A stretch of DNA of 64,000 nt, from the NCBI GenBank assembly GCA_951406725.2, contig OX597840.1:19220001-19284000 (forward strand). Direction: 5' to 3'. Below the pieces are notes generated by a model, which worked only from the letters and a program-made list of their open reading frames with translations, was not told where the DNA came from and searched no databases. The stretch comes from Octopus vulgaris. Taxonomy: Eukaryota. Below, in pieces: positions 1 through 40,664 of this stretch (positions are counted from its first letter, which is position 1; every line of letters begins with the position of its first letter). The translations under genes were made by a program, and so were the position numbers.

Positions 1-250
1 TTCTCTTTTGTTGATGAGTTATTTAGTAGCAATCTCCCATTCTTGGATTGCAAATGCAAAGCCTTTGAAGTGTGATGTAATTTGGCGGTCATAAGTCCAA
101 GAGGGACTTCGCTTCATGTCAATGTTTCTATCTTCATCAATTCTTCGAGAAATATATCGAAGCTGAACGTTTCAGCTCCAGGTCTTATTTGAAGTATGCT
201 AGCCCGGTTGATTTGGGGTTGTATGGGAGATCATCAGGAGGATATTGTTT
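1..250 (-). mobile_element. Decayed REL-class (R4/Dong-like) non-LTR retrotransposon ORF fragment
   Basis: Minus strand reads YISRRIDEDRNIDMKRSPSWTYDRQITSHFKGFAFAIQEWEIATK*LINKRE. This resembles the S..W...GF..AIQ(D/E)Q.I.T motif that precedes the CCHC/REL region of R4/Dong-type elements. Contains stops and a frameshift, and starts at a (CATA)n tract. Confidence 0.7.
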
Positions 251-420
251 GTATGTATGTATTCATGTATGTATTTATGTGTGTGCATGTGCGTATGTCT
301 GCTGTATATACGTATGTATGTATATATGCATGTTTGTATGTATGTATTCATGTATATATTTATGTGTGTGCATGTGCGTATGTCTGCTGTATATAGGTAT
401 GTATGTATATATGCATGTTT

Positions 421-797
421 GTATGTCATTATTCGATTTTATTTCAAGATTTCTTGCCAATGCACAAGGAGAAGGTTTCTAACTAAGATCCAAGGCTCCT
501 TCATTGGAATCTCAACAACATCAACCGGATATTTTTGCACGTATTTGTGCACGTATGTGCAGTATTCTAAGTCAGTGCATGTGCAGATTTGCAGATTTTG
601 TTTTATGTGCGTCTCCTCATACGTATAGTTGTCTCTTTAGACGTGTGTTAAATGATAAACTTCTCGAAAGTTTTATATAATTTAAAGATCTAGTGATGGC
701 TTGGATCTATAGTCGTCGAATTAGCTTTCGCCTTTCCTGGTTTGAGAAGCATAATTTCTCAAGATTGGTATTTAGGCAGTGTGGTACACATCCCAGT
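421..797 (-). mobile_element. REL-class LINE 3' end (ORF C-terminus, 3'UTR, (CATA)n tail)
   Basis: Minus strand reads LGCVPHCLNTNLEKLCFSNQERRKLIRRL*IQAITRS, like the LG..P..L...L..L/LQ..A..G REL C-terminus. The 3' end (TTGGCAAGAAATCTTGAAATAAA..GAATAATGACA) recurs at 45030-45155 (+). Confidence 0.65.
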
Positions 798-861
798 GTA
801 TGTATGTATTTATGTATCCATGTATATATGTATGCATATATGTATGTATATATGTATGCAG

Positions 862-892
<31 letters not shown>

Positions 893-951
893 TGTATGTA
901 TGTATGTATGTATGTATGTATGCATGCATGCATGCATGTATGTATGTACGT

Positions 952-1415
952 AGAGAAATCTCGAGTTGCACATGAGAAAGTAAGGAGAGATGTCAGGAAG
1001 GGCATCGCTGTTACACTTCCAGAAGGGAAGGGTCTTCCTTTGATTCTGACATGCAATGTCGGTGCAAGACCCTGCCTTAGTAAAGCTGGACTCATGAGTC
1101 ATCTTCGTAGTCATAAAACGAGACAGATGAGTGACAACCTGGCCACTATTGGTGGTGTAACACACCATACTAATCATATCTGTCGGGCATGTGGAAGAGA
1201 GTGTAATTCAGCAGGAGGACTTAAACGACATGCAAAGGTACATGAAGCCCAGTTACAACTACAGCCGACTATTACCAGTAAAGGTTTTAGTTGCCAATGT
1301 TGTACAAGACATTGTAGATCTTTAGCTGGGCTAAAAAGTCACATTCGATCACAGCACCAGTAACAGTTAAGCTTCGTGCAATGGCCATACTCGATAACGA
1401 GGGGGCAGCCATGAT
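952..1415 (+). mobile_element. 5'-truncated RTE-clade LINE 3' end encoding three C2H2-like zinc fingers
   Basis: Reads EKSRVAHEKVRRDVRK...CNVGARPCLSKAGLMSHLRSH...CRACGRECNSAGGLKRHAKVH...CQCCTRHCRSLAGLKSHIRSQH*. C..C.R.C.S..GL.SH.R.H is the RTE/BovB C-terminal motif. Short 3'UTR runs into (TATG)n. A second copy lies at 53511-53658 (-). Confidence 0.8.
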
Positions 1416-1569
1416 GTATGTTTGTATGTCTATCTTTCTCTTCTTAATTTAGAATAAATTTTGGCCGGCCTCCCGCTTGACAGCAAGCTTGTGAAGAAAA
1501 GCGTCTCGTTTTAACCATGATCCAATCAATCTGAAGAAAATCTTGCAGATAGTCCTAGATATCGTCATC

Positions 1570-1576
1570 ATGTATA
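1570..1576 (+). CDS. Speculative start-codon segment of a spliced exon (1453-1576) of the small gene ending at 22601
   Basis: Pyrimidine tract plus TTTAG at 1452, ATC-ATG-TAT-A followed by GTACGT donor at 1577. Phase 1 matches the candidate exon at 3500. Confidence 0.2.
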
Positions 1577-1919
1577 GTACGTTTGTTTGTCTGTATGTAT
1601 GCGTATGTACATAAATGTGTGTACCATAAAGACTGTTAACCACCATCAACATTAATGCACCACCGCAACTACCATTCCAGGGATCGTCATCACCACAACA
1701 ATGACTGTTTCTCTTGTTACCATAACAACATAGTAATCACTACACTAGCTACTATGCTTATCATAAACGTCGTCGTTACATTTACTGCCACTACCACTAC
1801 CAAAATTAGCAGTACCACAACTGTAACAGTCACAAACATCGTCAGCACAACCATCTCCTCTACCGACACAACCCAACCACAAAAAGCGACACCACAGTCA
1901 CTGCAAAATCCGCCACAAC

Positions 1920-2485
1920 CACCATCGCACCCCACCATCCCCACCATCACGCTACAACAAATAGACAAATAACACCACTGTCATACAGCCATCGCCACCA
2001 CCGCCATCACCACCACCGCCATCACTACCACCGCCGTCACCACCGGTACCACAACTGGCACCAACGTCGCCCCCACCGTCACCACTACAAATAAGCAGAA
2101 AAATAGCACCACCATCACCGCCACCACCATCGCACCCCACCATCACGCTACAACAAATAGACAAATAACACCACTGTCATACAGCCATCGCCACCACCGC
2201 CATCACCACCACCGCCGTCACCACCGGTACCACAACTGGCACCAACGTCGCCCCCACCGTCACCACTACAAATAAGCAGAAAAATAGCACCACCATCACC
2301 GCCACCACCATCGCACCCCACCATCACGCTACAACAAATAGACAAATAACACCACTGTCATACAGCCATCGCCACCACCGCCATCACCACCACCGCCGTC
2401 ACCACCGGTACCACAACTGGCACCAACGTTGCCCCCACCGTCACCACTACAAATAAGCAGAAAAATAGCACCACCATCACCGTCA
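1920..2485. repeat. Tandem repeat, about 3 units of 181-196 bp, CCA-rich
   Basis: GCTACAACAAATAGACAAATAACACCACTGTCATACAGCC starts at 1951, 2147 and 2328. Confidence 0.95.
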
Positions 2486-2849
2486 CCACAGCCATGTCTA
2501 CCACCGACAGAGATGGCACCACAAACACCTTCCTCATCACCGCCACGACCAAAAACAATATCGCCACTACAGCAAACAACAACACCACCGCCATCAACAA
2601 CACCACCGCCATCAACAATAACAAAAAATTAAATCACCAAAAATAAAAAAATTTTTTCTGAGAATTTCCACTCTAAGCGATTGAATGTATTTCGGTCGAT
2701 TTAATTCTTTTACAAGAACCGTTGTATTCTTGACAGTGTGGGAGGGTAGGATTTCAGAATATTGGTAAATAAAATCTTGGATTAAATCGGCACTGTCTTG
2801 TATTCTTTACATTCTTATAATACAGTGTGCATCACTCTCCTTGTCTAGT

Positions 2850-2883
<34 letters not shown>

Positions 2884-2891
2884 ACACTCAC

Positions 2892-2933
<42 letters not shown>

Positions 2934-2934
<1 letters not shown>

Positions 2935-3024
2935 GCAAGTGTCTTCTGCTATAGCCCCGGGCCGACCAATGCCTTGTGAGTGGATTTGGTAGACGGAAAC
3001 TGAAAGAAGCCTGTCGTATATATG

Positions 3025-3098
<74 letters not shown>

Positions 3099-3290
3099 TG
3101 TGTCTGTGTTTGTCCCCCTAGTATTGCTTGACAACTGATGCTGTTACTTAGCGGTTCGGCAAAAGAGACCGATAGAATAAGTACTGGGCTTACAAAGAAT
3201 AAGTCCCGGGGTTGATTTGCTCGACTAAAGGCGGTGCTCCAGCATGGCCGCAGTCAAATGACTGAAACAAGTAAAATAGTAAAAGAGTAA
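2934..3290 (+). mobile_element. tRNA-derived SINE family A (5'-truncated copy)
   Basis: GGGCAAGTGTCTTCT...GGAAACTGAAAGAAGCC-(TG)n-...ATGGCCGCAGTCAAATGACTGAAACAAGTAAAA; many near-identical copies in the window. Confidence 0.9.
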
Positions 3291-3306
3291 AGAGTATACA
3301 CATATA

Positions 3307-3433
<127 letters not shown>

Positions 3434-3499
3434 CGTCGTCCCCTTTTCTGGTATAATTTTTTCTCTCGTCTTCTCTCGTTCTTTCTCGCTTTTCCTCAG

Positions 3500-3539
3500 A
3501 GAGCACCCATGTTGCTCAAATATTGTCTGATAGTACACG
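3500..3539 (+). CDS. Candidate 40-nt internal coding exon ([13 protein letters not shown])
   Basis: Long pyrimidine tract ending CCTCAG (3499), donor ACG|GTATGC. Open in the frame that ends in phase 2, matching the exon at 22373. Confidence 0.3.
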
Positions 3540-3699
3540 GTATGCTATAGAAGCTCGCCCGGCTTTAGTACTATCGTGCACATGGAACTTAAAGTAGCTC
3601 AGCTTTTTAGTTCTGCATAACTTATATTTATCTCTTGGTGGAAACATTTTTGTTGATCTTAATATTTAAGGGAACATTATACAATATATATATATATAT

Positions 3700-4003
3700 T
3701 ACGGAGATGTACTTGCATAGTAAGTGACCTGAGCTGAGATTGTGCTGAAACAAACACAAGTGCAGCGTGGAAGGTGTTTATAAGCCATTTAAGAAACACA
3801 CAAAAAACCGTTAGCTCCACTTCAACATCTAAATTTAATTTGCCAAAATATTTTCGTCACTTTGAGTCCATGACCTGTTAACTGACAAATAGAGAGATTC
3901 AGCACGGTATTTTGTCAGTGAACAGGTCACGGTCTCAAAGCGACGGAAATATATTGGCAAATTAAATTTAGATGGTGAAGTGAATCTAACGGGTTTTGTG
4001 TGT
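3700..4003. mobile_element. Penelope-like tail-out inverted repeat with G3-C8 hammerhead motif
   Basis: Arms 3796-3890 and 3910-4003 are reverse complements, and the long arm ends in (TA)n. Two-arm consensus: TTTGTCA GTGAACA g GTC..GAC GAAA ATAT TT TGGCAAA. Confidence 0.7.
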
Positions 4004-4554
4004 TATCAAGCATGTGAAACACTGGACGTGAAAGGCCCTAGTTCTCATTAGAACAGCTCTTTTAAGAGAAGGTAAATTGTAAATTAAAAGTCTTGAAGTG
4101 CAGTCGATGTGTATTCGCCATGACTCCTGTTGTGTCACTTGTTTTATGGCTAATTGCGCTGAAAAGAGGTTCAGTGCTGTGCAACACTTCATGCACTCAA
4201 AAATGAATTATAGTTAATACCTAACTGAACTCACATATCATTTTTTCTCATAAGGATAAATATGAATCTCCTAGATTCTATTTTGCTGTTTCCTTTCTCA
4301 AGTCCTTTGTAAAAATTTTGTTTATACTTTTTGCACTGAAGAGTACAGTAATATATAATTAATTTAAGTAATTCAATACAACCATGAATTTGCATGATTT
4401 TTTATATCTCCGTACGAAACGATTAAAATTCTCTTATACGTTTTAACATTTTTCTCTTCTCCATTTTTAACAAAATTATCGAGCTTTATAGGATTTCTTT
4501 CCAACACACCATACACAAGTATATATTATGTTACACATACACACACACACACAC

Positions 4555-4650
<96 letters not shown>

Positions 4651-4711
4651 ATATATATATGTGTATATATATATGTGTATATATATATGTATATATATAT
4701 ATATACATATA

Positions 4712-4768
<57 letters not shown>

Positions 4769-5249
4769 GTGTATGTGTGTGTGTATATATACATGTACAT
4801 ATATATATACACACACATACATATGTATATAGTTAGTAGTTAGGTTATATTTTGTTAAGAAAGTAGTAGAGTAAAGTATAAACCTCGTTCACCTTCAGAT
4901 TTCACCCTGCGCTATGCAACTTATTCAATTACATATGTATATATATGGAATATACAAGGAATTTTCGTCAACCGGTGTCATGTAAGAGGTATGTACTCTG
5001 AGTGATCCGTTTGATTTACCACTAAAATTCCGGTTTGAACTACTATTGGAAAGTGTGGTGTTGAGACTGTCTATCTGAGACGGCTATAAGTTGTTTCTCT
5101 TTGAGCGGCTAGATATAGAATAAAATGGAAAACGAATAAGCAAAACATTTGGCATCATTTGAGAAAAAAGCATTTTAGATAGGGAATATAAACATATAGC
5201 ATCTCTTCTAGCTGTTTCTAGAACAGCAATGCATGTGATAATGATGATA

Positions 5250-5329
<80 letters not shown>

Positions 5330-5384
5330 CTCTTTGAGATCATCATTAGGAAAACGAAAGAGGTTGAAAAAAATCTTCAAGTAC

Positions 5385-5620
5385 TTATTTCTTTACAACC
5401 CACAAGGGGATACACACAAAGTGGACAAATAAAGGACAGACAAAGGGATGAAGTCGATTATATTGACCCCAGTGCGTAACTGGTACTTAATTTATCGACC
5501 CCGAAAGGACAAAAGGCAAAGTCGCCCTCGACGTAATTTGAACTCAGTACGTAACGACAGACGAAATACCGTTAAGCATTTCGCCCGTTGTGGTAACGTT
5601 TCTGCCAGCTCGCCGCCTTA
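5385..5620 (-). mobile_element. SINE family B (Meta-domain-like), nested in a Dong-like LINE fragment
   Basis: Minus strand AAGGCGGCGAGCTGGCAGAAACGTTA...GACTTTGCCTTT.GTCCTTTCGGGGTCGATAAATTAAGTACCAG. TCTTCAAGTACT-like sequence is repeated on both sides. Confidence 0.85.
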
Positions 5621-5624
5621 ATCT

Positions 5625-5940
5625 GCAAGTACTCCGAATCTTCAAGTTCTCCGAATTAAAAGTAGAAATGGCAAGATTGTATGGAATGCGAGGGGGTAAT
5701 GTAAAAGTGATACAATGGGCTCAATCCCATTGAAACTCCAAGACTTTTTAAGACAACTGGAAATCCCTCGAAAGGATGATGTCTTGCAAAAAGCAGTCTT
5801 ATTGGGCACAGCACACATCTTAAGGAAAGCATTATTTGTCTGAGGTCCTTGTTGTAACTTGACCTTTGATTAAAGACTCCGGTACATTTTTACCTACACT
5901 GTGTCACGAAGGAATAATAATGATAATAATAATAATAATG
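5625..5940 (+). mobile_element. R4/Dong-like LINE 3' end with (TAA)n tail
   Basis: KFSELKVEMARLYG...LQKAVLLGTAHILRKALFV*, then a 3'UTR and AATAATAAT. Confidence 0.85.
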
Positions 5941-5958
5941 ATGATGATGATGATTATA

Positions 5959-5996
<38 letters not shown>

Positions 5997-6099
5997 AGCA
6001 ACAGTAACAAACGCATTAAGATTAAAAGGATAGACCGAAGAAAGAAAAAGAAAGAAGAAATGAAAAAGGGAATGAAAAGGAAAGAAAAAGCAACAGGAT

Positions 6100-6868
6100 A
6101 GAAGAGAAGGAAAGAAGGAAGGAAGAAGAAAGGAAGGAAGGAAGGAAGGAAGGAAGGAAGGAAGGAAGGAAGGAAGGAAGGAAGGAAGGAAGGAAGGAAG
6201 GAAGGAAAGAAGGAAGGAAGAAAGGAAGAAAGGAAGGAAGGAAGGAAGGAAGGAAGGAAGGAAGGAAGGAAGGAAGGAAGGAAGGAAGGGAGGAAGGAAG
6301 GGAGGAAGGAAGGCTGGAGGAAAGGAGGAAAGGAAGGAAGGCAGGTAGGAAGGAAAGAAGGAAGGAAGGCTGGAAGGAAGGAGGAAAGGAAGGAAGGAAG
6401 GAAAGAAGGAAGGAAGGAAAGAAGGAAGGAAGGAAGGAAGGAAGGAAGAAGGAAGGAAGGAAGGAAGGAAGGAAGGAAGGAAGGAAGGAAGGAAGGAAGG
6501 AAGGAAGGAAGGAAAGGAAGGTAGGAAGGAAGGAAGGAAGGAAGGAAGGAAGGAAGGAAGGAAGGAAGGAAGGAAGGAAGGAAGGAAGGAAGAAAGGAAG
6601 GCAGGAAGGAAGGAAGGCAGGAAGGAAGGAAGAAAGAAAGGAAGGGAAGAAGGAAGGAAGAAAGGAAAAAAGGAAGGAAAGCAGGAAGGAAGGAAGGAAG
6701 GAAGGAAGGAAGGAAGGCAGGAAGGAAGGAAGGCAGGAAGGAAGGAAGGAAGGAAGGAAGGAAGGAAGGAAGGAAGGAAGGAAGGAAGGAAGGAAGGAAG
6801 GAAGGAAGGAAGGAAGGAAGGAAGGAAGGAAGGAAGGAAGGAAGGAAGGAAGGAAGGAAGGAAGGATG
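6100..6868. repeat. (GGAA)n polypurine microsatellite, about 770 bp
   Basis: Directly visible. Confidence 0.98.
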
Positions 6869-7379
6869 GGAATGAGAGTACTGTTAAGATTCCATTCCTG
6901 CAGAGAAAATATATTTGTATTGGTTCTTAATCTAATCTTCGGCAATGCGTTCTCTCAGGAGAATTTGAAGCCACTTTACGGAATTAACACATCATCATCA
7001 TCATCATCAACAACAACAAGAACATTATCAACAGCGACATCAACATCAATACGTCTTCGACATCTATGCCTCCACGTGGTCATATAATTTGGTAGAAATG
7101 GCAGTAAATATTACGTCTTGAAGTTATATGAATGGGACAAGGTGCGTTAAAAGAAATTTATTGTAGTGCAGATGTGTGGGAGTTTTGCCGACCCACATCG
7201 ATGGGTTGCCACCAGGCAGCTTTGGTGTTACTGTGGAAGCGATCGAAACTACGACAGAGCTTTCTCACCGCCTAATGAGAGGCGAGTGCTGCATTCGGAA
7301 ACGGAGTGCAAACAACATCAGCAAACAAGTGGTTATCTTAAAACGAGATGGTCTTTGGGCTTAGGATTTATATATATAT

Positions 7380-7589
7380 ACTCTTTTACTCTTTTACTTG
7401 TTTCAGTCATTTGACTGCGGCCATACTGGAGCACCGCCTTTAGTCGACCAAATCGACCCCGGGACTTATTCTTTGTAAGCCCAGTACTTATTCTATCGGT
7501 CTCTTTTGCCGAACCGCTAGGTTACGGGGACGTAAACACACCAGCATCGGTTGTCAAGCAATGCTAGGGGGACAAACACAGACACACAA

Positions 7590-7622
<33 letters not shown>

Positions 7623-7788
7623 CATATATACGACAGGCTTCTTTCAGTTTCTGTCTACCAAATCCACTCACAAGGCATTGGTCGCCCCGAGGCTATAGCA
7701 GAAGACACTTGCCCAAGATGCCACGCAGTGGGACTGAACCCGGAACCATGTGGTTGGTTAGCAAGCTACTTACCGCACAGCCACTCCT

Positions 7789-7792
<4 letters not shown>
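7380..7792 (-). mobile_element. Full-length SINE family A
   Basis: Minus strand GCGCAGGAGTGGCTGTGCGGTAAG (A-box-like) ... GGTTCAGTCCC (B-box-like) through the GACTGAAACAAGTAAAAGAG tail. Confidence 0.9.
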
Positions 7793-7829
<37 letters not shown>

Positions 7830-7831
<2 letters not shown>

Positions 7832-8139
7832 ATGTGACAACTATTCGGTAGCCATGATAAAACTCCGAGTTTCGGATGCCGAGGTGGAAATCCACGCCGC
7901 CATCTCTTCAGTTATCCGGCCATCGGAAAAAATACTATGAAAAATTACTTGTATTCATAGTATTTTCCGATGGCTGGATAACTGAAGAGATGGCGGCGTG
8001 GATTTCCACCTCGGCATCCGAAACTCGGAGTTTTATCTTGGCTACCGAATAATTGTCACATATTACATTTACATATAAATTCCTCTATTTACATAATATC
8101 GAGGTCTCTTTCATTCTTTTGTTGTCTTGCCATTTCTAT

Positions 8140-8143
<4 letters not shown>
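7830..8143. mobile_element. Penelope-like tail-out inverted repeat between (TA)n tracts, copy 1
   Basis: Arms 7830-7941 and 7954-8063 are near-perfect reverse complements. The right arm extends to 8143. A homologous copy lies at 10349-10737 in the opposite orientation. Confidence 0.85.
7976..8038 (+). ncRNA. Minimal type I hammerhead ribozyme motif (mirror copy at 7856-7917, minus strand)
   Basis: Stem I GGATAA/TTATCT; core CTGAAGA (7982-7988); stem II GATG/CATC plus one extra C; GAAA (8020-8023); palindromic stem III ACTC-G-GAGT; GUU cleavage triplet. Confidence 0.75.
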
Positions 8144-8211
<68 letters not shown>

Positions 8212-8252
8212 ATATAATATAATATAATATAATATAATATAATATAATATAT

Positions 8253-8283
<31 letters not shown>

Positions 8284-8766
8284 ATATGGGCAGTTGCATA
8301 TGCAACGAGGCATAATTTCCTGTGCAGCTTCGGTCAGGGTCTTCCAACCAGCTTGGCTCAAAGCGAACTGAATTCAGTTAGTTGTTTATTGGTTAAGGTT
8401 CAGGGTAAAGCGAGGGTAAATTGTTTTGTGTCTGAATGTTGTTCTGTTTGTAAACTTGTATGGCTGACCTCTGCTTCACCCTAGTTGCTGGGCGAATGCA
8501 GGATTCTAAGTAGGTCCAAGTTTGTTTTACTGTTTTGGCGGGCTTCTTTGTGTATTGTAGTAGATGGGTACTTAATAAGCTTACTTTCAAGAATAGTTTT
8601 TGTAATGTTTTTTTTTTAATTGAGGGTAGTTCAGTTCTGTTACCGTCTTAGTTATTCAGATATTTTCGTGGTTTTAGTATTTATTATTCTTGGTAGTAAA
8701 AGGGAAAAGGGTTAGTTCTAGTACTAGGTTAGTTCATTCCCACCCAACTGTGGGTGGCATATTGAG

Positions 8767-9105
8767 CTACCTAGAATGTATGTTAAATTTCTTAAAGGTT
8801 TTGACAGGTTTACGTAAGCATCTTATGGTTTGTTTCAGCCTGTTATTAAGTAATTTGCGTCCTGATGTAAAGATTTGGTACATTTCTTCTATACACAACT
8901 CACATCTATGTCCCCCTGCCCCAAACGATTTAGCCGTACTAATTATCTCTCACTCTGTGGTAAAGCTATGGATCTTATCTTTAAGAAAGCAGATTAGTCT
9001 GCCTAAGCTCGTGCTGTTCCTCTTATTCCTATCCCTAAATGAATTTAAATTATTTACTGGACTTTTTTGTAAATATTTAGCAAGTTAACCCCAATATGGA
9101 AGCAC
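8767..9105 (-). pseudogene. Decayed Penelope-like (Naiad-type) GIY-YIG endonuclease C-terminus
   Basis: Minus strand CFHIG (YIG-like), frameshift, then NNLNSFRDRNKRNSTSLGRLICFLKDK...E*EIISTAKSFGAGGHRCELCIEEMYQIFTSGRKLLNNRLKQTIRCLR. This fits SF......T.LS..IW.LK...W.I...A......C.LC.EE...I....LLN.R. The 3' non-coding part continues to about 8285. Confidence 0.8.
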
Positions 9106-9304
9106 GTCCTTCCTTCAGGTATGATCTTGCATCGATACACTGGATTCTTCTTCAAACATACCCCGCTACATTGTGTGTTATATTGCCGTTAGTGTTCGAG
9201 TCTCGTCTGTTACAAACTGTTCCTTTCCTGTCATCTAGCGTTTCGACAAATAAAACCGATGGAATAAGTAACAGGTTTTTTTTTTAAAAAACATGTTTAT
9301 TCGA

Positions 9305-9448
9305 CTGCGTAGTTGGGAGCTTGCTTCGTATCCACGTGGATCAGGGTTCAGTCCTACTGCATGTCACCTTGGGCTAGTGTCTTGTACGTCGGGCCGACCA
9401 AAGCTTTGTGAGTGGATTTAGTAGATGGAAACTAAAAGAAGCCTGTCG

Positions 9449-9516
<68 letters not shown>

Positions 9517-9660
9517 TGTGTGTGTGTGCAGCACCCATAACTTAACGGTTCGGCAAAAAAGATCAAAAACATAAACGTTCTGGGGTCGACTAAAATTTCT
9601 TCTAGGCGGTGCCCCAGTATGGTCGCAGTCTAATAATGACTGAAAGAAGTAAAATATAAG
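9305..9660 (+). mobile_element. Diverged SINE family A
   Basis: Same head, core, (TG)n and tail order. Another old minus-strand copy lies at 10010-10270. Confidence 0.8.
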
Positions 9661-10348
9661 ATATAACGTAAAAGACAAACACTTCAATCTGGTGGCCCAG
9701 CTCGGCTGCAGACCAGTCAGTGAAGCAGGTAATCGATATATGATAAAATAATCAGGCAGAGGAACCCTCACTGATTGGTATCTACCAGCATTATCGATTT
9801 TATATGAAGAAAACATTTGTTTAGTTGTTATCAGAGATTAAATTTCAATTATCTATTTTTCATCGGAAGATTACCGTTAATCATAGAATATCGATTAATC
9901 CTGTGGTTCTCAAATCAATTTGGGTTCAGGGTGCCATAGAGATCAATAACAGGAAGTTTTGCTACCATTTGTTTCAGCTCTTTACACTGTTTTTTTTATA
10001 TATATTTTATCTGTTCTAAGCTTCAGTCATTGGACTAAGGCCATGCTGGGGTACCACCTTGAGGGGTGTACTAGAATAAAGCGGCACCAGGACTTGGTTT
10101 TGCGGGCTTTTTGTTTTTTTCTTTTTGTTTTTCGGTTTTCAGTCCGGTACTTATTCTATCTGTCTTTTTTCGAACCGCTAAGTTATGAGGACGTATACAA
10201 ACGAACACCGGTTGTCAAGCGGTGTAGAGGAACATATACAAAAACAAGGACACCCACATCTACACACACACACGCAGATATATACATGGCTGCAGTTTAA
10301 TGACTAAAGCAAGTAAAAGATAAATAAATAAATATATATATATATATA

Positions 10349-10730
10349 TTGATAAAAACGGTAAGATAACAAAAGAAAGAAAGAGACCTCAATATTATGT
10401 AAATAGAGGAAATTTATCTGTAAAATAATATGTGACAATTACTCAATAGTCAAGATAAAACTCTGAGTTTCAGATGCCGAAGTGGAAATCCACAACACCA
10501 TCTCTTCGGTTATCTGGCCATCTGAAAAACGCTATGAAAAAATACCGTTCTTTTTTTTCCTTTTGCTTTATCCGAAAAAAGTGCTTTTTTCTTGGAGCTT
10601 TTTATATGTTTTATATCTTTTTTCATAGCGTTTTTCAGATGGCCAGATAACCGAAGAGATGGTGTTGTGGATTTCCACTTCGGCATCTGAAACTCAGTTT
10701 TATCTTGACTATTGAGTAATTGTAACATAT

Positions 10731-10737
<7 letters not shown>
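10349..10737. mobile_element. Penelope-like tail-out inverted repeat between (TA)n tracts, copy 2
   Basis: Arms at about 10425-10541 and 10619-10734. The hammerhead motif has a CCGAAGA core in both arms (10645-10705 on +). Confidence 0.85.
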
Positions 10738-10792
<55 letters not shown>

Positions 10793-10816
10793 TATACATA
10801 CACACACACACACATA

Positions 10817-10884
<68 letters not shown>

Positions 10885-10944
10885 CGTACACACACACACA
10901 CACGCACGCACACACACAAATACATATGCATATACGAATATATA

Positions 10945-11851
10945 CGAGGTGGTATCAAAAAGTTCACAGACTAGGTATGTTTAATAAAAAAAATTATTTA
11001 CCTAAGTTTTAATACCATTTCTTCCGAAACTGTGACCTTGCATAACAATATTCCGGTCACAGCGTCCCTGGCCTTTTGAAATCCGGCCTGGATCTCGTTT
11101 TCCGTGAGCGAGTTGAGGACCTTTTGCAATTCGTTCTTGGTCTCAACAGCAGTATTAAAACGGCGACCTTTGAATTAAATTTTTATCTTGGGGAGGAGAT
11201 GGAAGTCTGCAGGTGTTTAACCTGGTGAATAGGGCAGGTACGGAAGCGATGCCATGTTGTTTTAGGCGAAAATTTCACGAGTGAGGAAAGCTTGGTGACG
11301 GTGCATTGTCATCGTGAAGAATTCAATTCTTCGCGCCCCATAGATCCGGTCGCCTTTGCCAAATGTACTCTTTCAAATGCTTCAAAACATCTTTGATTGT
11401 CCTCCGACGATTCTTATTCACAAGCTGATGGATTTTCTCCACATTTCCAGGGTGACGCTTGTGGCACATCTTCCAGATCGCTCATCGTCCTTCAGGCATA
11501 TCCATACGCTTTTGAAACGCCTGCATCACTCGAAACATTACGAACCATTGCCTTGTTGCTGTAAGATGGCCGAAGCATGCTCAATGTCTCTGTAGGAGAC
11601 CTCTCCTAGTTTAACGCATAAGTTCACGTTGGCTCTTTGTTTCAACTCCCTGTCAATGACAAAATCGCAGACTACAGCATACACGTGATCACAAAACACG
11701 ACATTTCACAGCGTGCAAAGTAAACACAGCAATCTCATGCGGCACACTGCCTTATGAAGGTCCCTGCTAGCTCCCACTGCGCACGCAACCTTGTGCTGAC
11801 ATCTGTTAGCGCACTACACAACTAGTCCGGAAACTTTTTGATAGCATCTCA
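10945..11851 (-). mobile_element. Internally deleted, decayed mariner transposon
   Basis: TIRs CGAGGTGGTATCAAAAAGTTCACAGACTAG / CTAGTCCGGAAACTTTTTGATAGCATCTCA, flanked by TA. Minus-strand remnants RRFKS...LKDDERSGR, LHDDNAP and PYSP..P.DF.L.PK. Confidence 0.92.
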
Positions 11852-12161
11852 TATGCACATGTGCATATACATACGCACACATATAAATATACATGTATAC
11901 ACAAACACACACACACATATACAATCTATATATATGTATGTATTACGTATGCACGTATATATATATGTGCATATACACATACATATATGTACATACATAT
12001 ATATGGATATAGATATGCACATATGGGTACAGGACGTCACAAAACGTAAACAACATGAAATACGAAAATAAAGTTGGGTATGCAAAGAACGAGAGAAACA
12101 AATGGAAAACAAAACAAGTAACATAAAAATTACCCTTCATCAGTTGTCAGCTGTCCGTCTA

Positions 12162-13544: not shown

Positions 13545-14130
13545 TAAATTTTGGCACAAGGCCAGCAAGTTCCGGTGAGGGGGTAAGTCGATTACGTCGG
13601 CCCCCCGAGTTTGACTGGTACTTATTTTATCGACCCCGAAAAGATGAAAAGCAAAGTCGGTCTGAGCGTAACTTGAACTCAGAACGTAAAGAGGCGGAAG
13701 AAATAGCTATTTCTTTACTACCCACAAGGGGCTAAACGCAGAGGGGACAAACAAGGACAGACAAACGGATTAAGTCGATTATATCGACCCCAGTGCGTAA
13801 CTGGTACTTATTTAATCGACCCCGAAAGGATGAAAGGCAAAGTCGGTCTGAGCACAATTTGAACTCAGAGCGTGAAGAGGCGGAAGAAATACCTATTTCT
13901 TTACTACCCACAAGGGGCTACACACAGAGGGGACAAACAAGGACAGACAAACGGATTAAGTCGATTACATCGACTCCAGTGCATAACTGGTACTTATTTA
14001 ATCGACCCCGAAAGGATGAAAGGCAAAGTCGACCTCGGCGGAATTTGAACTCAGACCGTAGCGGTAGACGAAATACTGCTAAGCCTTTCGCCCGGCGTGC
14101 TAACTATTCTGCCACCTCACCGCCTTTTAA
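13545..14130 (-). mobile_element. Tandem trimer of SINE family B (period about 187 bp)
   Basis: Junction GAAATA(C/G)CTATTTCTTTACTACCCACAAGGGG at about 13700 and 13887. A single head at about 14130. Further older copies span 14150-14830. Confidence 0.9.
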
Positions 14131-15000: not shown

Positions 15001-15641
15001 GGAAGGAATGATGAAATGAAAGGCAAAATGGCACATCATTTATTGTGTTCAAAGAATGAATCAATAAATAAATAATATAAAAACTGGAATATTCTTCATT
15101 TATTATCAATGACTATTTCGTTTTTCACTGCGAAATGACGTTGAGCATAATAAATAGCTAAGATGCTATATTCGATCAGATAATTTTCGTGAGTGTATGA
15201 CAGATACGGATCAGAGAAAACACATAGCTTCACAGATTTCGGGAAACTATAAAATGTAAATGAGATAAAAATGGAATTAAATCGACAGAAACGATAAGAA
15301 TAATAAAGATTTGGAAAGAAAAATAAAACACAAAAACAAAAAATAAATGTATAAGGAATGTTTGGTTGGTGGATACCGAGGGCGTTTCCTAAAAAAATTG
15401 GTAGAGATATCATCTTAGAATCATAATAAATAAATAAATAAATAAATACATAAATAGATGATAATGAAGAAACGCGGTCTGTGAGGTAAGAAGTTTGCTT
15501 TCCAACCATACGGTTCCGGGTTCATTCGTACTGTATGATACCTTGAGCAAAGGTCTTCTAATATAGCCGTGGGCCGACCAAACCCTTGTGAGTAGATTAG
15601 GCAGAGGGTAACAGAAAGAAGCTCACCATATATCCATATAT

Positions 15642-16055
15642 AGGCGCAGGAGTGGCTGTGTGATAAGTAGCTTGCTTACCAACCACATGGTTCCGAGTTC
15701 ATTCCCACTGCGTGGCACCTTGGGCAAGTGTCTTCTACTATAGCCTCGGGCTGACCAAAGCCTTGTAAGTGGATTTGGTAGACGAAAACTGAAAGAAGCC
15801 CGTCGTATATATGCATATATATATATGTATGTGTGTGTATATGTTTTGTGTCTGTGTTTGCCCCAAAACCACCACCACCAACATCGCTTGACAACCGATG
15901 CTGGTGTGTTTACGTCCCCGTAACTTAGCGGTTCGGCAAAAGAGACTGATAGAATAAGTACTAGGCTTCCAAAGAATAAGTACTGGGGTCGATTTGCTCG
16001 ACCAAAGACGGTGCTCCAGCATGGTCGCAGTCAAATGGCTGAAACAAGTAAAAGA

Positions 16056-39984: not shown

Positions 39985-40664
39985 CAGTTAAATCGATTAT
40001 ACTAACCCCATTGCTCAACCAGTACTTATGTGATCAACTCCGAAATGATGAAAGGCAAAGTCAGCTACGGTTGAATTTTAATTGTGGACGTAAGGACGGA
40101 CGAAATACCTATTTCTTTACTACCCACAAGGGGCTAAACACAGAGAGGACAAACAAGGACAGAAAAACGGATTAAGTCGATTATATCGATCCCAGTGCGT
40201 AACTGGTACTTATTTAATCGACCCCGAAAAGATGAAAGGCAAAGTCAACCTCGACGGAATTTGAACTCAGAACGTAGCGGCAGACGAAATACCTATTTCT
40301 TTACTACTCACAAGGGGCTAAATACAGAGGGGACAAACAAGGACAGTTAAAAGGATTAAGTCGATTATATCGACCCCAGTGCGTAACTGGTACTTAATTT
40401 ATCGACCCCGAAAGGATGAAAGGCAAAGTCAACCTCGACGGAATTTGAACTCAGAACGTAGTGGCAGACGAAATACCTATTTCTTTACTACCCACAAGGG
40501 ACTAAATACAGAGGGCACAAACAAGGACAGTTAAAGGGATTAAGTCGATTATATCGACCCCAGTGTGTAACTGGTACTTAATTTGTCGACTCCGAAAGGA
40601 TGAAAGGCAAAGTCGGACGAAATACCGTTAAGTATTTCGGTCGGCGTGCTAACGACTCTGCCAG

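What the first reader, a model, noticed from the sequence alone, without database searches (positions are those of the whole stretch)
3839..3961. Natural G3-C8 hammerhead variant, reconstructable only from both arms
The right arm has an intact GTGAACA core but a damaged GGAA-ATAT-AT. The left arm has an intact GAAA-ATAT-TT but GTTAACA. The consensus gives a 7-bp stem I (TTTGTCA/TGGCAAA), a GTC/GAC stem II after one extra G, an AAAATATTTT palindrome and a UUU triplet. G3-C8 is the compensatory swap known from mutagenesis and is rare in nature. This copy is probably inactive.
Basis: partly seen in the sequence, partly recalled or inferred. Interest (0 to 1): 0.7.

Follow-up and report, generated by a model that had tools for sequence, protein, structure and literature searches.

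The report
Swapped-core hammerhead in Penelope element ends
This hairpin is two decayed, back-to-back end pieces of a Penelope-type jumping gene whose thousands of copies carry a hammerhead (self-cutting RNA) motif with two paired core letters swapped; the family's motif likely cuts slowly, but cutting is untested and this copy is predicted to be dead.

Summary
Window 3698-3889 (-) and 3895-4004 (+) are two inverted solo pLTR fragments of an EN+ Penelope-like element. I traced the family to its parent ORF (RT, CX3CxxC linker, C-terminal GIY-YIG) and to a full pLTR-ORF-pLTR copy. G3-C8 is the family state: 5,400 exact intact motifs genome-wide (control 0), and only 21 of 6,084 copies have C3. 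A sister family found by protein homology has C3-G8 in the homologous motif, so the 3:8 pair covaries naturally (one event). 'Reconstructable only from both arms' is wrong, since thousands of intact copies exist, and stem II is 5 bp, not 3. Both window arms carry core lesions (G5U; A13G plus U16.1A). Copies appear to come from capped, uncut RNA, and I found no genomic footprint of cleavage; activity is untested. No natural G3-C8 hammerhead turned up in the papers searched, but Lünse 2017 was unavailable. The scan noted this variant before on other DNA of this genome (e1-8667090, e1-8672697) and in other genomes. Verdict: new variant of a known kind, moderate interest.

The parts
3698..3889 (-). 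Left copy: solo pLTR fragment, 5'-truncated at stem I, running to the long ('tail') 3' end
   Evidence: 84.5% to natural full-length copy L136 over 194 columns; end matches the second common 3' end of the family
3839..3889 (-). Left-arm hammerhead motif: G3-C8, G5 replaced by U at 3880, rest of core intact
   Evidence: sequence; alignment A1
3698..3788 (-). Remnant of the first ~30 codons of the element's ORF (ATG at 3788), frameshifted in this copy
   Evidence: translation; the same start continues into the long ORF in L136
3684..3697 (.). (TA)n run next to the 3' end of the left copy, likely insertion target
   Evidence: sequence; TA runs follow family 3' ends in many loci
3890..3894 (.). 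Inversion junction; G3894 sits where many copies carry an untemplated G
   Evidence: sequence; hand count
3895..4004 (+). Right copy: solo pLTR fragment from the common 5' end; stops before the ORF start
   Evidence: 82.7% to L136 over 110 columns; up to 94% to other copies
3911..3961 (+). Right-arm hammerhead motif: intact G3-U4-G5-A6-A7-C8-A9; A13 replaced by G (3946), U16.1 by A (3953), one A-C mismatch in stem II
   Evidence: sequence; alignment A1

Best explanation
The locus is an inverted pair of decayed solo pLTR fragments of a Penelope-like retrotransposon (RT plus C-terminal GIY-YIG) whose family carries a minimal type I hammerhead motif with a G3-C8 core pair, likely a slow, dimer- or protein-assisted ribozyme in intact elements and predicted dead here. 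Shown: family consensus, link to the ORF, C3-G8 in sister families, lesions in both arms. Inferred: transcription starts about 22 nt upstream of G3, so the motif lies in the 5' UTR, with the predicted cut after +58 and the ATG at +115. The element's RT starts at one of two sites inside the first ~30 codons, copies back through the uncut motif to the capped RNA end, and often folds back to make the inverted partner. Every insertion needs the uncut motif and tail, so a weak ribozyme would be tolerated or favoured. Confidence in the identity and local inactivity is about 0.95; the score below covers the whole statement, including residual cleavage in the family.
For: Parent: copies extending upstream (983 hits) lead to an RT-like ORF with YSRYVDD, a CX3CxxC linker and Pfam GIY-YIG above cut-off (23.1 against 22.6 bits). 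G3 lies 971-1,114 nt after the stop in the 5 loci measured. The motif was found in 9 of 15 family-A ORF loci fetched. L136 is a full pLTR-ORF-pLTR copy. Consensus: 5,400 exact motifs; G3 and C8 together in 95 of the first 100 rows with positions 3, 7 and 8 left free (hand count); C3 in 21 of 6,084. Covariation: family B (53% aa identity over the C-terminal 520 aa, found by protein search) has C3-G8 at the same place before a homologous ORF start (38% identity over 124 aa). In 15 aligned motifs the 3:8 pair holds in 15 of 15 (11 C-G, 4 G-C), 91% of cells pair, and 4 of 12 pairs change on both sides. Intact copies fold stems I and II as the MFE, with pair probabilities 0.68-1.0 in 130-nt context. 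PLE hallmarks: inverted partner in 17 of 28 unselected loci, two preferred 3' ends and TA targets. The C3G/G8C double mutant partly rescues a PLE hammerhead (PMC11167929). G8 copies arise in all subfamilies but form no lineage of their own.
Against: No cleavage data. About 9 of 100 listed non-intact copies start at or within 1 nt of the predicted cut, most explained by fold-back microhomology (hand count), so there is no footprint of cleavage. The 3:8 covariation is a single evolutionary event, and families C-E were found with a pattern that fixed core and stem II letters, so their conservation is partly built in. Within family A the test has little power: subfamily-level variants (top minor allele at least 25%) hit 1 of 42 core, stem and palindrome positions (a pair-keeping one) against about 10 of 150 flanking positions. 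The two-copy MFE did not form the palindromic helix III duplex. The very young sister family B has C at conserved position 9, and L149 has G3-G8 in both its pLTR copies, which suggests loose constraint on these cores. Hammerhead mutants did not affect insertion in vitro (PMC11167929).
Confidence: 0.6

Rival explanations
1. Vestigial ribozyme: the motif descends from a PLE hammerhead but no longer cuts. G3-C8 drifted in, or is kept because the fold serves the promoter, protein binding or RT run-off.
For: No cleavage footprint among copies; templates were uncut; C9 in young family B; G3-G8 in about 40 of the first 100 of 304 copies with a non-C at position 8, present in both arms in 6 of 15 pairs; catalytic mutants still insert in vitro (PMC11167929).
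Against: Two transversions that exactly restore the pair, with U4, G5, A6, A9, G12-A15.1, U16.1, the G10.1-C11.1 pair and the palindrome all kept while loop II varies among subfamilies. Recurrent G8 copies never became a subfamily.
Confidence: 0.33
2. Non-autonomous retrozyme or satellite unit that makes RNA circles independently of a PLE.
Against: This locus is an inverted pair, not head-to-tail repeats. Copies end inside the ORF start and match the pLTR of ORF-bearing elements.
Confidence: 0.04
3. MITE or fold-back DNA transposon, or a microRNA hairpin, with a chance hammerhead look-alike.
For: Long near-perfect hairpin (-117.5 kcal/mol for 3790-4005); sub-threshold Rfam miRNA matches (MIR6140, 70.8 bits against a gathering score of 140).
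Against: Inversion junctions and arm lengths differ at every locus, and 11 of 28 loci have no partner. The unit is the pLTR of an RT/GIY-YIG element.
Confidence: 0.02

Closest known systems
Minimal type I hammerheads (min-HHRs) of metazoan Penelope-like elements (Cervera & de la Peña 2014, PMC4209133)
   Same: Position in the pLTR; extra nucleotide between 9 and 10.1; G10.1-C11.1; palindromic, very short helix III; U17 common; many solo copies and inverted pairs.
   Different: G3-C8 core. None of the 56 representatives in Fig. S3 has it (C3-G8 except two U3-A8 and one U3-G8). Stem I is 7 bp against the usual 4-5.
U3-A8 natural core variants (Perreault 2011, PMC3088659; Cercyon PLEs in PMC4209133)
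   Same: Natural covariation of the 3:8 pair inside an otherwise standard core.
   Different: U3-A8 keeps the pyrimidine-purine order and can be reached through a U-G wobble; G3-C8 reverses the order and needs two transversions (my inference).
Engineered C3G/G8C double mutant, including the PAc (Poseidon, Anolis) hammerhead (Frangieh 2024, PMC11167929)
   Same: Same core letters; partial rescue in vitro; two RT start sites inside the ORF start giving the 'tail'; AT-rich targets; uncut RNA as insertion template.
   Different: Here the swap is natural and fixed in thousands of copies; the ORF starts downstream of the motif, not inside stem II; the protein has a Neptune/Nematis-type linker.
Neptune / Nematis EN+ PLEs (Craig 2021, PMC8557442)
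   Same: C-terminal GIY-YIG, CX2-5CxxC linker, partial tandems, inverted 5'-truncated copies, tail, (TA)n bias.
   Different: Clade not resolved here (no reference sequences at hand); non-canonical core.

Membership tests
PLE minimal type I hammerhead | Lies in the pLTR of a Penelope-like element | tested here: met
PLE minimal type I hammerhead | Canonical CUGANGA box (C3, G8) | tested here: not met
   G3 and C8 in 95 of 100 listed; C3 in 21 of 6,084. Filed as a variant, not a canonical member
PLE minimal type I hammerhead | Watson-Crick pair between positions 3 and 8 | tested here: met
   15 of 15 aligned motifs, 11 C-G and 4 G-C
PLE minimal type I hammerhead | U4 G5 A6, A9, G12 A13 A14, A15.1-U16.1 in the family | tested here: met
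   96-99% per column in 135-143 copies, sample partly selected on the core; 5,400 exact motifs
PLE minimal type I hammerhead | The same core letters in the two window arms | tested here: not met
   left G5U; right A13G and U16.1A
PLE minimal type I hammerhead | Extra nucleotide between 9 and 10.1; G10.1-C11.1 pair; stems I and II | tested here: met
PLE minimal type I hammerhead | Palindromic helix III that allows a dimer | tested here: inconclusive
   6-nt palindrome AAUAUU is present, but the two-copy MFE did not form it
PLE minimal type I hammerhead | NUH cleavage triplet | tested here: met
   UUU; each position U in 139 of 142-143 copies
PLE minimal type I hammerhead | Site-specific self-cleavage | not testable with these tools
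   needs an in vitro or RNA-end assay; the indirect genomic test found no peak
EN+ Penelope-like element | Single ORF with RT and C-terminal GIY-YIG | tested here: met
   GIY-YIG over Pfam cut-off; Pfam gave no RT family, so RT rests on motifs and on E about 2e-8 to another GIY-YIG PLE family
EN+ Penelope-like element | pLTRs, inverted 5'-truncated partner, two 3' ends (tail) | tested here: met
Neptune / Nematis clades | CX2-5CxxC linker before the endonuclease | tested here: met
   CX3CxxC in family A and CX4CxxC in family B
Neptune / Nematis clades | RT phylogeny with reference elements | not tested
   no reference set; the tree used only this genome's copies and was poorly resolved
Non-LTR retrozyme | Head-to-tail tandem units, each with a hammerhead | tested here: not met
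   inverted pair at this locus

The most novel reading that the evidence does not exclude
A natural, actively cleaving G3-C8 hammerhead fixed in a recently active animal retrotransposon: the core pair was reversed across a fitness valley, and a deliberately slow ribozyme in the 5' UTR decides between translation or decapping and use as an insertion template. CUGANGA-based searches would miss whole families of such ribozymes.
Probability: 0.4. Interest if true: 0.62.

Novelty: new variant of a known kind. Interest (0 to 1): 0.43.

Why it matters
G3-C8 is known as an engineered rescue mutant. A natural family of thousands of copies, beside close sister families with C3-G8 and with C at position 9, gives a ready-made series for testing whether PLE hammerheads need to cut at all, which is an open question in the papers read (PMC8557442, PMC11167929). 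It also shows that standard descriptors and Rfam models (no hammerhead among the 150 matches shown) miss abundant variants. This particular copy has no expected function.

Tried and rejected
Rfam scan of 1-12000: no hammerhead family among the 150 of 157 matches shown; only sub-threshold miRNA hairpin matches. A first route to the parent through Pfam GIY-YIG led to an unrelated 781-aa PLE family with no DNA match to this motif. 3' splice-site reading of the common 5' end (branch-like CTAAC, pyrimidine tract, YAG): not favoured, because copies share at most GAG upstream, too short for an exon; not excluded as a second role. G3-G8 as an ancestral intermediate lineage: not supported; 40 G8 copies scatter over all subfamilies and 9 of 15 partner arms have C8. 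C3-G8 ancestral subfamily inside family A: not found; of 2 hits one is a family C copy and one is a single arm whose partner is G3-C8. Peak of 5' truncations at the predicted cut: not seen. Sequencing runs: no RNA holder listed, and only contigs were available, so starts, ends and expression could not be read. The protein tree was poorly resolved and is not used for polarity. The first structure string was mis-indexed and redone. Papers not held: Lünse 2017, Przybilski & Hammann 2007, Martick & Scott 2006.

Full report
Observation. The window lies in a 2.8-Gb animal genome (G000:C27:19220001-19284000). The right arm (3911-3961, +) has a 7-bp stem I, GTGAACA, one extra G, a stem II, then GGAA-ATAT-AT. 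The left arm (3889-3839, -) has GTTAACA and an intact GAAA-ATAT-TT. The hairpin is larger than reported: the left copy spans 3698-3889 and the right 3895-4004, and 3790-4005 folds at -117.5 kcal/mol. Rfam gave no hammerhead among the 150 of 157 matches shown.

Family consensus. A pattern demanding both the G3-C8 box and GAAAATATTT has 5,400 exact matches against 0 for the reversed control. With positions 3, 7 and 8 free there are 6,084, and 95 of the first 100 have both G3 and C8 (hand count). A looser descriptor gives 8,481 against 130. Only 21 copies have C3: 19 C3-C8 and 2 C3-G8. So G3-C8 is the family state and needs no two-arm reconstruction. In 161 alignments from 105 loci (many selected on the core, so core conservation is inflated) subfamily-level variation falls in loop II, the leader, the spacer and the ORF start; the only one inside the stems is an A-to-G change that keeps a U-G pair in stem I. 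This within-family contrast is too small to be significant. Intact copies fold stem I and a 5-bp stem II as their MFE. Contigs from runs labelled organisms A, C and D show the same G3-C8 box in their loose-end lines; the run of organism B covers the place without such a line, so the variant is probably shared among related species.

Host element. Most copies are about 200 nt, with a common 5' end and two preferred 3' ends followed by TA-rich DNA; 17 of 28 unselected loci have an inverted partner. A minority extend upstream (983 matches) through microsatellite-rich DNA into an ORF with an RT-type YSRYVDD motif, a CX3CxxC linker and a GIY-YIG domain above the Pfam cut-off (Pfam reported no RT family). 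Of 15 family-A ORF loci fetched, 9 had the G3-C8 motif, 1 had G3-G8 in both pLTR copies, and 5 had no pLTR in the stretch taken. The longest open frame seen was 1,025 aa. L136 holds pLTR-ORF-pLTR; its ORF starts 56 nt after the predicted cut, and the two 3' ends of short copies lie near codons 11 and 31. This is the architecture described for EN+ Penelope-like elements (PMC8557442) and the 'tail' made by two internal RT start sites (PMC11167929). The linker points to Neptune or Nematis; I did not resolve which.

Natural covariation. A protein search found sister family B (53% identity over the C-terminal 520 aa, 1,312-aa frame, many near-identical copies). Its motif sits before a homologous ORF start (38% identity over 124 aa) and has C3-G8, the same extra G and stem II base, and A-U where family A has G-C in stem II. 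A pattern search found more C3-G8 relatives, some with the same stem I and UU site. On 15 aligned motifs 91% of cells pair, the 3:8 pair holds in 15 of 15, and 4 of 12 pairs change on both sides. Caveats: the swap is one event, and the pattern-found families share core letters by construction; only B is independent. Since all relatives here and 53 of 56 published representatives have C3-G8, G3-C8 is most likely derived (inference).

How it likely works. Among the first 100 of 1,392 copies (hand count), 30 continue upstream, 30 start within the last few bases, and 40 start at AG-ATG; 26 of these 40 have G just before it, where the element has C or T (7 of the 26 are ambiguous through fold-back homology). 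I read this as RT running off a capped RNA that starts 22 nt upstream of G3 (inference; an internal promoter is reported for Penelope, PMC2377424 abstract). The motif would then lie in the 5' UTR, and every inserted copy came from RNA not cut at its 3' motif. There is no peak of copies starting at the predicted cut (about 9 of 100 listed non-intact copies, mostly microhomology junctions, hand count). This fits in vitro data that uncut RNA is the insertion substrate and that C3G/G8C partly rescues cleavage. A slow ribozyme is therefore plausible, but so is a vestigial one. Against function: the two-copy MFE did not form the palindromic helix III; young family B has C at position 9; and C8-to-G is unexpectedly common (40 G, 45 T, 15 A in the first 100 of 304, hand count). 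The 40 G8 copies scatter over all subfamilies; their partner arms have G in 6 of 15 and C in 9 of 15, against T in 0 of 5 for T8 controls. That indicates a recurrent change, possibly during transposition, and not an ancestral intermediate lineage.

This copy. The left arm has G5U; the right has A13G and U16.1A. The arms lie on opposite strands, and a read-through transcript would form the long hairpin, so it is predicted inactive (established core requirements).

Literature seen. PMC4209133: main text parts 1-2 of 4, supplement parts 1-2 of 3 (figures as machine-read text). PMC11167929: parts 1-2 of 4. bioRxiv 10.64898/2026.07.22.740005: part 1 of 5 (supplements closed). PMC3088659: outline, section 8, passages; it reports U3-A8, and its supplementary figures S6-S7 were not read. 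Passages only: PMC8557442, PMC6765202, PMC8495972, PMC3884650, PMC6155905, PMC11014351. Abstract only: PMC2377424. Searches for a natural G3-C8 case returned engineered mutants or unrelated papers; one search showed 20 of 32 listings. Lünse 2017, the most likely place for a prior record, was not held, nor were Przybilski 2007 and Martick 2006, so 'not in print' is not established.

Earlier scan notes. After forming my reading I found that the scan had noted a swapped-core hammerhead in Penelope ends on other pieces of this genome (e1-8667090, e1-8672697) and similar cases in other genomes. These are unchecked AI notes and are not counted as support.

Verdict. A real natural variant of a known kind; identity secure, activity untested, local copy dead. 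Interest 0.43; 0.62 if cleavage that depends on the 3:8 pair is shown.

Noticed in passing
L139-L143 (e.g. L140:1630-1695): Very young sister PLE family (1,312-aa frame) whose hammerhead has C at the conserved position 9; older-looking relatives have A9. A second non-canonical core in the same clade.
   Followed up: partly
L214-L253; L149:2617-2627 and near 6495: C8-to-G is about six times as common as the mirror change G3-to-C (about 120 against 21 copies) and is shared by both arms in 6 of 15 inverted pairs: a possible RT error hotspot or short conversion from C3-G8 families.
   Followed up: partly
L211:348-366: One family-A arm reads C3-G8 over a 19-nt patch identical to family C, while its inverted partner is G3-C8; possibly a short inter-family conversion.
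   Followed up: partly
L136:4700-4722: The common 5' end sits at a branch-like CTAAC, pyrimidine tract and YAG, so the site looks like both a start site and a splice acceptor.
   Followed up: partly
L041-L051: Another young PLE family (781-aa RT/GIY-YIG frame) has an overlapping upstream open frame of up to 479 aa.
   Followed up: no
L038, L040, L054: U3-A8-type hammerhead-like motifs near other GIY-YIG elements of this genome.
   Followed up: no
L128:1234, 4644, 8099: Three copies about 3.4 kb apart, all with A at position 8 and no ORF match; probably a local tandem duplication.
   Followed up: no
window 2003-2489, 13584-14060, 15479-15799, 39988-40614: Short tandem arrays of 177-186-nt units, some of them SINE-like by recall.
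   Followed up: no
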